In this document: positions 10,994-17,250 of the stretch, in pieces
How positions within the stretch are numbered: the first letter of the stretch is position 1
Layout of the letters: every line of letters starts with the position of its first letter
Source of the DNA: Octopus sinensis
Lineage: Eukaryota
Length of the DNA: 64,000 nt
Assembly (NCBI RefSeq): GCF_006345805.1
Contig: NC_043002.1
Span: 66,092,001 to 66,156,000, forward strand
Direction: 5' to 3'
Made by a program: the position numbers and the translations under genes
Notes under the pieces: generated by a model
The model's input: the letters and a program-made list of their open reading frames with translations, nothing else
Told to the model about the DNA's origin: nothing
The model's database searches: none

Positions 10994-11889
10994 ATATAAT
11001 ATAATATAAATAATATATAAATATATGCATATATACATACATATACGTACATACCTACATATATATGTATATGTACATGCATATATGGGTACAGGAATAC
11101 ATACATATACATCTATATATGCATACATACGCATTCATTCATACATACATACATACATACATACATACATACATACATACATACATACATACATACATAC
11201 ATGTAACGACGGATCTCATTTAAAGTCTCTTTTCCATGCTAGTATGGGTTAGATGGTTGCACAAGATCCGGCGATCCGCAGTGCCGCGCTGAGTTCCAGT
11301 GCCAGCCTTGGCATGGTTTCTATGATTGGCAGTCCTTTAAATTACCAACTACATTACCGTGTGTATTTGGTGCTCATTTTCGTGCCACCGGTATCGGTGA
11401 GGTTGCTGAGTAATTTGCAAAACAGAAAAAGAACAGAGGAAAAAGAAAAAGCTCTCGCTACTAAGTGAGGCGAGGGTGCCTTTATGCCAGGTGTCAAAAG
11501 GCTAAAGTATGATGAAGAGACAAGCTACAGATGTCTTGCTATAGAAGAGATGCATGGCTACCTCGCATTATATCAGGATGGGTCGGTGGAGTTGAGAAAA
11601 TAAAAAGTAATGATGGAGTGGCAGAGAAAGTCTCAAGATATAAGGTGAGCATAAGTGGGAAAGAGAAAGTGGGTGTGGGTGTATTTGTGAGCCAACGAGT
11701 CTCTCGACGGAAAGAAAATCTTGTAACACCAGTAGAGAGCTCCTTCAAATACAGTCGCTGTATACGTGACTGTCACTCCCGTGTGGTCCTCTGCAGTTAT
11801 AGTAGACGCTGCACCACAAGCAGCCGACACAATTTCTTCGAGAGCAGGTCCGTAGTCTCTCGAGATCGACGAGTGCCTATTACTATATG

Positions 11890-12289
11890 GGATCTTTTCG
11901 GTTTGAACGGCAGTTTTTTCTAGCGGTGTCATATGAAATTGTCACCCATAATTATAACCCTAGTATCGATCAATTGCATTTCAATCTGTTTTAGGGTTAG
12001 GGGTGGGGGAAGGGTATCTTTTTTTCTTCACAAATGTAAATGAACCCAATCTGTGTCTTAAACGAGGGACATATTCATACGGCACAGAATGTTTTGTTTT
12101 TACCTCAATGGACGTCATTGATTGGTTGAAATTGCAGAAATTGAACAAAAAAACAACAAATATCTTACAACTATAGAATTTTCTCAATAAAGCCAAGAGA
12201 AAAAGATGTTTTATAAACACATTCTACCAGTATACGAAGTTTAAAATATTTTAGTCACCTAGAAATTATCTTAAAAACTGAAAAGATTC
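11890..12289. mobile_element. Non-autonomous DNA transposon, GGATC termini, 7-bp TSD
   Basis: Ends GGATCTTTT / AAAAGATTC; perfect TSD ctatatg (11883-11889, 12290-12296); shares gtcattgattggttgaaatt and acacattctaccagt with the arm of 14896-15629; internal ttagggttaggg. Confidence 0.8.
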
Positions 12290-12334
12290 CTATATGTGTT
12301 TGTGTGTATGTTTGTGTGTGTGTTTATACATACA

Positions 12335-13886: not shown

Positions 13887-14499
13887 CTACATATAAACTT
13901 ATAGATGGGTAGTTAGTTGTTGAGCCACTTAATGTGACTCACTCAGAAGGTTGTAATCTCATTTGGTAGGAAACCCGGATGAAGAATATATAAAAAAGGT
14001 TGTAATTTTGTATACATTTAATGTGGCCACATGTATATGCACAACTGAATGATAAATGGAATGGTTGGTGCGTAGAGGCCATGGTCTTCAGTGCTTTTGC
14101 TCCTATCTGCTAGCTGGCGTGTGGTTGCGTCTTCATAGTTCGCATCCCAGTGCAGAAAGCGACAGAAGTGAATGTCTGAAACTTAATGTTGCATAACGCC
14201 CCCTATACGTGGCCGGCTTATTTGAACCCGATGTCAAGCGGGGTAACTGTGCCTACAAACTTTATTAACACCTCACATTGCCAATAAGGTTGTTTTAATG
14301 TATATTGACGCTTTTTTTTTTTCATTTACTTTGGCCTACATTAGAAATAGGAATTTTCAGGAATAATTGTTCTTCACTGTCCCGCAAAACCAAACAAGTT
14401 TGACATCATTGATTTAAGAGGTGTCTTGAATTGCACAACATTAAAATGGTTAGTAAGATAACAGGGTAATGCCATTAGTAAGATAGACAGGCAGGTGGA

Positions 14500-14745
14500 T
14501 GAGAAGAAATAAAGTACAATAGGAGAACTGGCACAGAGACTGCAACTAATTAACTTCAGAGTTGTAGAAAATTATCGATGAACAAGTTTACAAACCAGAA
14601 CAAGTGTAAAACGTTGATGAAACTGGGCTTGTTGGCATGTCTACTTGGATTTGTACTTAGACTGAAGAAAGCTCAATACCAAGCTTTTCAAACTTCTAAA
14701 AATTGTCTGACTCTTTTAATAAAAAGAAAAGCTGCTACTGCTGCC
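14500..14745 (+). pseudogene. Tigger/pogo transposase fragment
   Basis: KIIDEQVYKPEQV*NVDETGL ... AFQTSKNCLTLL matches the pogo DDE motif Y.peQifN.DETGL ... gfK.sK.RlTvl; contains stops and frameshifts. Confidence 0.75.
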
Positions 14746-14895
14746 ATGATATTAAGTCTCATACATATATTTTCTCCTAAAATGAAGGGTTTTTTTTTCT
14801 TTTCAAGTGTTTGTATAATATACCTGCGATTTGGCATTCAAATTAGAATGCTTGGATGACTATAAGTCTTTTCCAATACTGGTTGACAAACTTTT

Positions 14896-15629
14896 GGATT
14901 TTTACCTTTTGACCTACAGATTTAAAAAGAATTTTTTGTATCTAAACACTTTCAAACTTCATATACTGGTAGAATGTGTCATATAAAACATCTTTTACTC
15001 TTAGCGTTTTTGAGAAAAGCTTATATTTAGGAAGTTATTTCACGTTAAAATTTTAGTATTTCGGTAATTTCAACCAACCAATGGCGTGTATTCAGCTGAA
15101 TAAAATTACTGCTGTTGTTTGTCAACAAGAACTTCCAGCAGTGTATTTTTCGTTTGTCACTATTATTTATGACAACCCTAACCCTAACCCTAACCCTAAA
15201 ACCCTACCCCTAAAACCCTAACCCTAACTCTAAACCCTAACCCTAACCCTAAAACCCTAACCCTAAAACCCTAGCCCTAACCCTAAACCTAACCCTAACC
15301 CTAAAACCCTAACCCTAAAACCTTAAAACCAGTACAAACACATGAATGATGTCATAAATAATAGTGACAAATGAAAAATACACCGCTGATAGTTGTTGTT
15401 GACAAACAACAGCAGTAATTTTATTCAGCTGAATACATGTCATTGATTGGTTGAAATTACCGAAATACGAGAACTTTAATGTGAAATAACTTCGTAAATA
15501 TAAGTTTTTCTCAAAAATGCTAAGAGTAAAAGATATTTTATAAGACACATTCTACCAGTGTCCAAAGTTTGAAAGTGTTTAGTTACAAAAATTTATTTTT
15601 TAAATCTGTAGGTCAAAAGGTAAAGATCC
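14896..15629. mobile_element. Foldback DNA transposon with ~280-bp TIRs and a telomeric-repeat spacer
   Basis: Arms 14896-15174 and 15350-15629 are reverse complements; termini GGATTTTTACC / GGTAAAGATCC; perfect 7-bp TSD aactttt (14889-14895, 15630-15636). Confidence 0.9.
15174..15330 (-). repeat. Interstitial telomeric repeat (TTAGGG)n with TTTTAGGG variants
   Basis: (CCCTAA)n and CCCTAAAA units read directly on the + strand. Confidence 0.95.
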
Positions 15630-15679
15630 AACTTTTTTTCCACTGTAGAAAAACTACAGTACTAGGTGTAATATTTTCA

Positions 15680-17250
15680 GAAAATCCACCAAACTACCAA
15701 GGGAACTTAATTGATCTTTCTGATAATGAGAAGGCAAAATATAATGTCAAAAATACTTCTTTGCTGAAGCTAAAGGGTCAAAATGACATAGCTAACTTCC
15801 AGGCATATTATCTGAGAAAAGCAATTGATGAAAAAGATAAACCTATCGTTAAAGCCTCCTGGAAAATGTTAAACATTATGGATGCAGTGGATAATGGAGA
15901 CAAATTATGGGACAAAGTAAAATACTTGGCTATGAATGGTGTTCAGCAAAATGCATGATCAAAGTTATAATGACAAAATATTTGGTTGGTTAATAAAACA
16001 AAAATTTGTATGATGTCCATATACAAAAAATATTTATTTATCGTTTATAAAAAATTGTTGTCGTTACAATGAACGACAGAAGAGGGATATAAACACCAAA
16101 TGAATCAATTAGTGTGTCAACAATGATAGTGAAGCGTAGTAATTGTTGCATTCTGTAGCCGAAGCTGAATGACGTGAGTTCCTGCAGTAACTGGGTTTTG
16201 TTGTGTCACGATCCATGTTCTGTCAAAAAAGGTGCCAGAGACAAAATCGTTAATAACATTCCAATATGTTGTTTATCCAAAAATGGTTAGGGTGTTTACA
16301 ACAAATGAGATTCTAACGAGCTGAGCATCTGCTGGGTCTAATGTGGTTTTGCCAGTCGACCCAGCCACTGATAAAAACAAGTTCATAATCTGTCTACCAG
16401 AAATTTGAATGGCTAACTGCTTGCTGATGTTTTCAATCCCTGACAAAATCCTGTTTAAGTGTTTATAGTTATTTTTACATCTGAACACAGAAATTCAGTC
16501 TCAATTTCTAGTCAATGAGTTGGTGATTGGCACTCTTCCAATATTTCTGCTATGATTTATATCCATAACTTTGGAAGTTTTCCATCGGCAAAAAGTCTTC
16601 ATCAAGTTCAGTAAGACACTGCAACACAGAAAAATTATGTAGAGCTTGAAGATACCATTGATGTGCCTGAGATACTGGGATACCATAGCTTGCTAAATGA
16701 AAAAAGTGTATCTAACGAAAATCTGATGATGTTTGAGCTGCAAGTGCAAGAAGAGCATATCAAAGCACCACTTTAACTGACTACAAAGAATATGGCTAAA
16801 GAATTTGTACGTATAGAGGAAGGTCTGAAATCTTTACTGATAGGGATCCAAACCTTTAGTGCATCATAAAAATTCAAGAGGAGTTCATAATAAGCTCTTC
16901 AAAGAAATAGCATGCCATAAATGTCCACTTCGGATAAGTTTTACTTCTTTTATTTTTCAAAGGGTTTAAAGTCTGGTAACCACTACTGGGGTCGATCTAA
17001 TCGACTGGCCCCTTCCTGAGATACTTGTCTAATGAAAAAAGTGTGTCTAATGAAAATCTGATGATGTTTGAGCTGCAAGTGCAAGAAGAGGATATCGAAG
17101 CACTACTCTGACTGACTGCAAAAAATATGGCTAAAGAATTTGCACGTATAGAGAAAGGTCTGCACATTGGAGCTTCAAAGCAACTCTTGTTTTGCATTAG
17201 TCTTGCTTCAAGATGGCTCCTATTCAATTACAAACACTTTTTGTAACTTT
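15680..17250 (+). pseudogene. Probable decayed hAT-related (CGGBP1-like) transposase
   Basis: Ordered remnants LWDKVKYLAMNG, YPKMVRV and KVFIK...IPLMCLRYWDT resemble DKV..vtDaa, YPKMiHvtC and KKvFlK...P.TRWGT; many stops; ~150-bp local duplication 16666-16830 / 17015-17163. Confidence 0.45.

What the first reader, a model, noticed from the sequence alone, without database searches (positions are those of the whole stretch)
14896..15629. Foldback transposon that carries a telomeric-repeat array between 280-bp arms
Seen: a 734-bp element with two ~280-bp inverted arms, GGAT...ATCC ends, a perfect 7-bp TSD (aactttt), and a spacer made almost entirely of ~155 bp of (CCCTAA)n with CCCTAAAA variants. 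Known: 7-bp TSDs with GG ends do not fit hAT (8 bp), MULE (usually 9), PIF (3), Tc1 (TA) or piggyBac (TTAA). Inference: a mobile vehicle that disperses interstitial telomeric sequence (telomere-protein binding, G-quadruplex loop on a cruciform or dsRNA stem). The array may be an inherited module, or a scar of telomerase acting at the hairpin centre.
Basis: partly seen in the sequence, partly recalled or inferred. Interest (0 to 1): 0.72.

Follow-up and report, generated by a model that had tools for sequence, protein, structure and literature searches.

The report
Merlin mini-transposon spreading telomere repeats
This is one copy of an abundant gene-less jumping element, likely once moved by a now-broken Merlin-type enzyme, whose copies inherit a variable run of telomere-like repeats, and with its sister families it holds most of the scattered telomere-repeat sites in the chromosome stretch checked, though no function for the repeats is shown.

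Summary
The element is real: 734 bp, 279/280-bp arms (90.7% alike), a telomere-like spacer and an exact 7-bp duplication. The 7-bp TSD is not a family trait: of 58 two-ended copies, 36 have 8 bp (24 exact) and 2 an exact 7. It is a non-autonomous Merlin. Broken Merlin transposases with matching arms beside them exist in this genome (15 of 18 loci, against 0 of 60 controls), and target-site preference matches other Merlins. The array is inherited, not a per-copy telomerase scar: 41 of 42 full copies carry it next to one fixed anchor, as a 38-320-bp variable spacer, and longer parent forms hold it too. A distant relative has the empty site. No function is shown, and a sister family moved without the tract. 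The scan noted a similar family earlier in another genome (e1-9814440).

The parts
14889..14895 (+). Left target-site copy AACTTTT (7 bp here; family mode 8 bp)
14896..15174 (+). Left arm (279 bp), Merlin-type terminal inverted repeat with GG end
   Evidence: aligns end to end with the arm upstream of broken Merlin transposase L337 and over most of L344's
15175..15324 (-). Telomere-like tract, G-rich on the minus strand (TTAGGG and TTTTAGGG units); length varies between copies
15325..15349 (-). Fixed anchor, homologous to the 5' untranslated region of Merlin copy L340
   Evidence: present in 42 of 42 delimited spacers; 29 of 32 letters match L340; family copies hit this region at E ~1e-8
15350..15629 (-). 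Right arm (280 bp)
   Evidence: 81-86% to arms beside Merlin transposases L244/L332, L337, L340, L344, L349
15630..15636 (+). Right target-site copy AACTTTT
   Evidence: no indel listed here in short-read contigs of X5 and X7 (only 26 letters on the element side)
14524..16897 (+). Host: decayed pogo/Tigger-type DNA transposon that the element split (limits approximate)
   Evidence: about 70% paralogues that run across the site; paralogue frames hit PF03184 DDE_1 over cut-off
11889..12290 (+). Copy of sister family C (GGATCTTTTCGG end) with a two-unit TTAGGG tract near 11991-12002
   Evidence: 75% to the focal arm

Best explanation
The element is one of many dispersed copies of a gene-less foldback DNA transposon that normally makes 8-bp target duplications, likely mobilised in trans by a Merlin (IS1595-type) transposase, and its telomere-like tract is inherited cargo that likely changes length by replication slippage and likely has no role in transposition. 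Shown: dispersed copies with distinct TSDs; an empty site in a distant relative; broken Merlin transposases with homologous arms; the anchor's homology to a Merlin 5' UTR; longer related forms holding the same tract. Inferred: a Merlin lost its transposase interior, the tract entered with a flanking module from other repeats, successive internal deletions (L443/L476 form, then the 800-850-bp form, then the 600-900-bp focal form) left the tract as the loop, a related transposase amplified it when arms were about 4-5% less diverged, and tracts then grew or shrank in 6-, 8- and 14-bp steps. The result is that this clan supplies most short interstitial telomere-like sites sampled.
For: TSD census: of 58 distinct two-ended copies, 24 exact 8 bp, 12 8 bp with one mismatch, 2 at 9 bp, 2 exact 7, 1 7 with a mismatch, 1 6 bp, 16 none. 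Merlin is defined by GG ends, 24-462-bp TIRs and 8-9-bp TSDs, and often has internal tandem repeats (PMC8101967 passages). 15 of 18 loci of one Merlin lineage have an inward-pointing clan arm, against 0 of 30 other Merlin and 0 of 30 MULE loci; three of its frames pass the PF12762 cut-off. L344 and L337 begin with nearly the focal terminus. A matrix from 36 focal TSDs scores 15 Merlin TSDs at +1.32 against -1.44 (background) and -1.35 (shuffled), 0 of 10,000 in both. Anchor in 42 of 42 and tract in 41 of 42 delimited spacers, 38-320 bp, 168 CCCTAA and 87 CCCTAAAA units. 15 of 18 longer relatives pulled in by the Merlin 5' UTR hold a short tract. Empty site in X19. 57 of 67 (TTAGGG)3 sites lie in the clan. 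Family D (L169, 1620 bp, 8-bp TSD) and the partner Merlins carry no tract.
Against: No intact partner: the longest open stretch is 211 aa and the best arm identity is 82.6-86.3%, below the ~92% among focal copies, so the actual mobiliser is not in hand. The one partner with both arms (L341/L365) shows no clean TSD. Three of the 15 arm-bearing loci were found through their arms and L333/L350 share one flank. The target-preference test has no MULE control. 16 of 58 copies show no TSD. A tract sits 236-340 bp from an end in three families whose nearby sequence aligns poorly, which passive carriage does not predict. The ITS census covers 66.5 Mb of one contig.
Confidence: 0.83

Rival explanations
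1. The tract is kept by selection: host telomere-repeat-binding proteins bound 240-340 bp inside the ends help transposition or shield the element, or the sites now act in host regulation.
For: Families A, B and C each carry a tract 236-340 bp from an end with the G-rich strand reading toward that end, though homology between families fades after about 190-220 bp. Spacers carry 0-19 YTAGGGTTR sites, 11 in the window (motif recalled as a TRF-type site). TRF1/TRF2 bind some short human ITSs (PMC6410037 passage).
Against: Family D and the partner Merlins lack the tract. Tracts are degenerate, longest pure run 1-2 units in 31 of 42; 6 of 42 have no such site. No binding or expression data.
Confidence: 0.12
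2. Telomerase or a telomeric-RNA copy wrote the tract once, at a break in a founder element; transposition and slippage did the rest. This fits the best explanation except for the tract's origin.
For: In the focal form the G-rich strand runs 5' to 3' from a truncated Merlin 5' UTR that ends in a telomere-like seed. ITS insertion at repaired breaks with in-register seeds is described (PMC7215372 abstract and section 12).
Against: In the longer form L443 about 28 other letters lie between anchor and tract, and the tract sits in a module also found in L308, L473, L445 and L476, so the seed contact arose by deletion. About a third of units are 8-mers, and an 8-mer native to the Merlin UTR would give a TTAGGG-like repeat by simple duplication (inference).
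Confidence: 0.2
3. Each copy, or this copy, gained the array after insertion when telomerase healed a break at the hairpin or cruciform centre.
For: The element can fold into a near-complete stem with the array as loop (DNA MFE -243 kcal/mol); array lengths differ between copies.
Against: Same polarity, same junctions, same anchor and shared variant units in 41-42 of 42 copies; no pure run above 4 units; parent forms hold the tract off-centre.
Confidence: 0.02
4. The element belongs to another superfamily (MULE/Phantom, hAT, P/Galileo) or to a new 7-bp-TSD kind.
For: The window copy and L023 have exact 7-bp TSDs. MULEs have long TIRs and 8-11-bp TSDs (PMC6446971 passage).
Against: No clan arm encloses any of 30 MULE loci or the 10 wider MULE stretches; PF20700 has one weak hit. 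Focal targets favour A at 2 and T at 7 (64%), opposite to hAT nTnnnnAn (PMC10512250 passage). Both 7-bp cases begin with an A-run. hAT and P transposase loci were not searched.
Confidence: 0.04

Closest known systems
Merlin superfamily and its non-autonomous derivatives (Feschotte 2004 as summarised in Lopes et al. 2021, PMC8101967: passages and part 1 of 2 of S1 Table read)
   Same: GG ends, 8-bp (rarely 9-bp) TSD, TIR length in the 24-462-bp range, PF12762 partner, internal tandem repeats; Merlin is noted as abundant in an octopus genome.
   Different: The internal repeat is telomere-like and forms the loop; 'telomer' does not occur in that paper's main text, and the table gives repeat periods, not sequences (Merlin-1_Aplcal has a 6-bp repeat of unknown unit).
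Telomere-bearing elements TBE1-3 of Oxytricha (PMC4724952, passages read)
   Same: A DNA transposon that carries its host's telomere repeat.
   Different: TBEs are autonomous Tc1/mariner elements with ANT TSDs and a short fixed repeat at the TIR tips; here the repeat is internal, variable and in a gene-less Merlin derivative.
Short interstitial telomeric sequences of mammals (PMC7215372 abstract and section 12; PMC6410037 passages)
   Same: Short TTAGGG tracts scattered inside chromosomes.
   Different: Those are single insertions at repaired breaks; here most sampled sites are copies spread by transposition, a route the review names only as a possible mechanism for large heterochromatic ITSs.
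Foldback-type elements: Galileo (P), MULE/Phantom, Tetris (search listing; MULE passages; Galileo's 7-bp TSD is recalled)
   Same: Long inverted arms with little or no coding interior.
   Different: Different transposase lineage and TSD; the arms here are not themselves built of repeats.

Membership tests
Merlin (non-autonomous) | 5'-GG terminal dinucleotide | tested here: met
Merlin (non-autonomous) | 8- or 9-bp TSD | tested here: met
   38 of 58 copies at 8-9 bp (25 exact); 16 without TSD; the window copy itself has 7
Merlin (non-autonomous) | TIRs of 24-462 bp | tested here: met
   279/280 bp
Merlin (non-autonomous) | Homologous ends on an element with a DDE_Tnp_IS1595 transposase | tested here: met
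   15 of 18 partner loci, 81-86% arm identity for the closest; PF12762 over cut-off; D, D and E blocks visible
Merlin (non-autonomous) | A complete, intact autonomous partner with both TIRs and a TSD | tested here: inconclusive
   only broken copies found; L341/L365 has both arms but no clean TSD; 40 of 182 candidates scored
Merlin (non-autonomous) | Mobilisation by the transposase | not testable with these tools
   needs an excision or transposition assay
MULE/Phantom | 8-11-bp TSD and long TIRs | tested here: met
MULE/Phantom | Ends shared with a MULE transposase element | tested here: not met
   0 of 30 best PF10551 loci and 0 of 10 wider stretches; 88 matches existed, so coverage is partial
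hAT | 8-bp target of type nTnnnnAn or nnnTAnnn | tested here: not met
   A at 2 and T at 7 in 64% against the patterns
hAT | Ends shared with a hAT transposase element | not tested
   no hAT search was run
Telomerase-inserted short ITS (this copy) | Orthologous locus lacks only the telomeric tract | tested here: not met
   the X19 locus lacks the whole element; paralogues share the tract
Telomere-bearing elements (TBE) | Telomere repeat at TIR tips, Tc1/mariner transposase, ANT TSD | tested here: not met
   internal tract, 8-bp TSD, Merlin partner
Catalogued Repbase/Dfam family | Sequence match to a library consensus | not testable with these tools
   no such library is held; an octopus annotation lists 18 Merlin and 74 MITE families without sequences seen here

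The most novel reading that the evidence does not exclude
A Merlin clan kept telomere repeats a fixed distance inside its ends because host telomere proteins bound there aid or protect transposition, and in doing so it seeded this animal's chromosome interiors with thousands of shelterin-type binding sites that act as regulatory elements or as ready seeds for new telomeres at breaks.
Probability: 0.12. Interest if true: 0.78.

Novelty: new variant of a known kind. Interest (0 to 1): 0.45.

Why it matters
Short interstitial telomeric sequences are usually read as scars of break repair or chromosome fusion; spread by transposons is named in a review only as a possibility. Here one Merlin clan holds 57 of 67 sampled sites, so in this genome such sites mostly record transposition and should not be used as fusion marks. 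The clan is also a natural experiment: on the order of 1,800 focal copies (rough estimate) share flanks but differ in tract length (spacer 38-320 bp), and a tract-less sister family is a control, so the dependence of telomere-protein binding, fragility and slippage on tract length becomes directly testable.

Tried and rejected
Best Merlin hits as partner: none of the 30 loci has clan ends; of the 60 wider stretches none showed a clan TIR pair with TSD, though two (L073, L115) had a lone clan left end. L031, a Merlin with GGATCA ends and an 8-bp TSD, was rejected as partner: its close relatives lie only on small contigs and its TIR differs. MULE and PF20700 searches gave nothing. An assembly homopolymer error as cause of the 7-bp TSD found no support, but the contigs reach only 26 letters into the element; the empty allele has one T fewer, so a primary 7-bp duplication and an 8-bp one that lost an A cannot be told apart. 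No RNA holder listed. Run X11 is uninformative, its contigs stop short of both junctions. The right-flank frame has no significant Pfam hit on its own. The scan look-up by sequence and one by words were blank. PMC9071541 and PMC10294476 passages gave no element of this kind. One hAT paper was not held. Paper searches listed no description of a Merlin derivative with telomere repeats; subscription papers, Repbase and Dfam were not searchable, and bioRxiv supplements are closed.

Full report
Observation. Window 14896-15629 is 734 bp with arms of 279 and 280 bp at 90.7% identity, GG/CC ends and AACTTTT on both sides. The 175-bp spacer is about 150 bp of CCCTAA and CCCTAAAA units plus a 25-bp non-telomeric anchor. 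The window lies at G000:C6:66.09-66.16 Mb in a 2.72-Gb assembly. That the animal is an octopus is taken from earlier AI notes and was not tested; that its telomere repeat is TTAGGG is recalled for molluscs.

It is a dispersed family. The arm gave 3,547 first-look candidates, 40 scored (this includes sister families). The exact 25-bp end occurs 382 times, control 0, and the anchor 16-mer 520 times, control 2. As 12 of 42 sampled spacers hold that 16-mer exactly, the family has roughly 1,800 copies; the sample leans to well-preserved copies. Arms are 4.2% and 4.7% from their majority sequences, which differ from each other at 6 positions.

The TSD is 8 bp, not 7. I examined 100 loci: the 30 best arm hits, the first 30 exact end matches and 40 stretches picked from those two lists. 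They held 58 distinct two-ended elements; the rest were truncated, duplicated or pieces of another family. TSDs: 24 exact 8 bp, 12 8 bp with one mismatch, one exact and one mismatched 9 bp, 2 exact 7 bp (the window and L023, both starting in an A-run), one mismatched 7, one 6, and 16 none.

Empty site. In run X19 (organism E) a contig of 1,001 letters and depth 9.1 matches 14070-14895 with its letters 1-821, and a contig of the same length and depth matches 15634-15817 with letters 818-1001. I read these as one contig that lacks the element; its left flank differs from the window at 61 letters. X18 (same organism label, other study) also stops matching at 14895. X3, X5 and X7 run into the arms by 21-26 letters, under the tool's 31-letter bar, so 'filled' there is suggestive only. 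The host is a decayed pogo/Tigger-type element.

The mobiliser. GG ends, 8-9-bp TSDs and 24-462-bp TIRs define Merlin (PMC8101967 passages). The genome has many Merlins (690 candidates, 150 scored); those with resolvable ends have GG termini and 8-9-bp TSDs. A matrix from the 36 focal 8-bp TSDs scored 15 Merlin TSDs far above background and shuffles, 0 of 10,000 each; the preference (A at 2, T at 7) is opposite to the hAT pattern. The best-scoring Merlins were not partners. A weaker lineage was: L232 and L234 have a clan arm running into the transposase, and L244 has a right arm matching the whole focal arm at 81%. A search with that transposase (40 of 182 candidates scored) gave 30 loci. I kept the 18 distinct ones at 78% identity or more and left out overlapping duplicates and the 70-75% hits. 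15 of 18 have an inward-pointing clan arm, against 0 of 30 other Merlin and 0 of 30 MULE loci. Three of the 15 were known by their arms beforehand and two share a flank. Three frames pass the PF12762 cut-off. L337, L340 and L344 carry arms 82.6-86.3% like the focal arm, L344 with nearly its exact terminus. All partners are broken and none has both ends with a clean TSD, so the family is likely dead and the exact mobiliser is missing.

The tract is inherited. In 42 of the 58 elements both arms were complete enough to delimit the spacer. All 42 have the anchor, 41 have at least one CCCTAA and 38 at least two, in one polarity with shared junctions; spacers run 38-320 bp, median 85.5, so the window copy is among the longer ones. 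Units are 168 CCCTAA and 87 CCCTAAAA and no pure run exceeds 4. The anchor is a piece of a Merlin 5' UTR (29 of 32 letters to L340). Searching with that UTR brought in a longer form of about 800-850 bp with 8-bp TSDs where resolved (L406, L408, L409, L411): arm, UTR piece, a 65-bp module, short tract, anchor, arm; 15 of 18 such loci hold the tract. L443 and L476 are longer still, and the tract's flanking module recurs in L308, L473 and L445. The order long to short, by internal deletions, is my inference. The tract's ultimate origin (telomerase once, or duplication of a native 8-mer) is open.

Share of interstitial sites. All listed (TTAGGG)3 matches on C1 from 0 to 66.5 Mb, merged within 2 kb, gave 67 sites. 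With queries free of telomere repeats, 57 lie within 260 bp of a clan arm: 38 family C, 11 the focal family or its longer forms, 8 family B. Of the other 10, five share the tract module (two of them with a focal arm further off) and five are unrelated. A smaller look at (TTAGGG)4 gave 7 of 9. Large arrays also exist, such as one of 10 kb or more at C1:75.76 Mb, so the clan dominates by number of sites, not necessarily by bases.

Function. For: in families A, B and C a tract lies 236-340 bp from an end with the G-rich strand toward that end, although the families align only over their outer 190-220 bp. Against: family D moved with an 8-bp TSD and no tract (L169), the partner Merlins lack it, tracts are degenerate, and only 17 of 42 match a canonical G4 pattern. 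The stem folds as expected of any long inverted repeat. No binding or expression evidence was obtained.

Known work. Tandem repeats inside Merlins are reported and proposed to spread by transposition (PMC8101967, passages and part 1 of 2 of S1 Table). Transposition of telomeric repeats is named as a possible origin of large ITSs (PMC6410037 passage). TBEs carry telomere repeats at their tips (PMC4724952 passages). Break-repair insertion is the standard model for short ITSs (PMC7215372 abstract and section 12). A recent octopus repeat annotation lists 18 Merlin and 74 MITE families, and 'telomer' occurs neither in its text nor in its one supplement (PMC13282606); its library was not seen. Searches listed no description of this arrangement; Repbase and Dfam could not be checked. 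Earlier scan notes describe a likely Merlin-type family with TTAGGG cargo in another genome and telomere-like fillers in other elements of this genome; these are unchecked AI notes.

Verdict. A real, abundant, probably inactive non-autonomous Merlin family with an inherited telomere-like variable tract. The odd TSD is a property of this copy. What remains of interest is that one transposon clan accounts for most sampled short interstitial telomere-like sites. New variant of a known kind; interest 0.45.

Noticed in passing
window 11889-12290: Copy of sister family C, the commonest carrier of short TTAGGG tracts (38 of 67 sites); 8-bp TSDs in L303, L306, L307; palindromic two-arm variants exist (L096, L309).
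   Followed up: partly
window 14524-16897: Decayed pogo/Tigger-type transposon hosting the element; about 70% paralogues elsewhere.
   Followed up: partly
L311, G000:C1:75755700-75765460 and beyond: A degenerate TTAGGG block of at least 10 kb in the middle of the largest contig; possible fusion or subtelomere relic.
   Followed up: no
L064, L066, L074, L075: Palindromic Merlins of 3.3-3.5 kb with two inverted transposase copies and 8-9-bp TSDs.
   Followed up: no
L155, L158, L160, L166, L169 (about 1056-2680): Family D composite of about 1.6 kb carrying a 65-bp piece of the focal end plus microsatellite-rich DNA, amplified as a unit, without a telomere tract.
   Followed up: partly
L235:1-1261: A tandem array of about 103-bp units made from a clan terminus.
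   Followed up: no
L031:1194-2817: Merlin with GGATCA ends, internal tandem repeats and an 8-bp TSD whose close relatives lie only on small contigs, perhaps from a co-sequenced organism.
   Followed up: partly
L408 and L409 (G000:C4:99.507-99.511 Mb): Neighbouring copies of the longer form with the same 8-bp TSD, a local tandem duplication.
   Followed up: no
L014: A focal copy whose flanks are inverted copies of each other instead of a TSD.
   Followed up: no
L308, L473, L445: Telomere-like tract with the same flanking module outside clan arms; in L445 beside a GGTAC-type end. Possible donor of the tract.
   Followed up: partly
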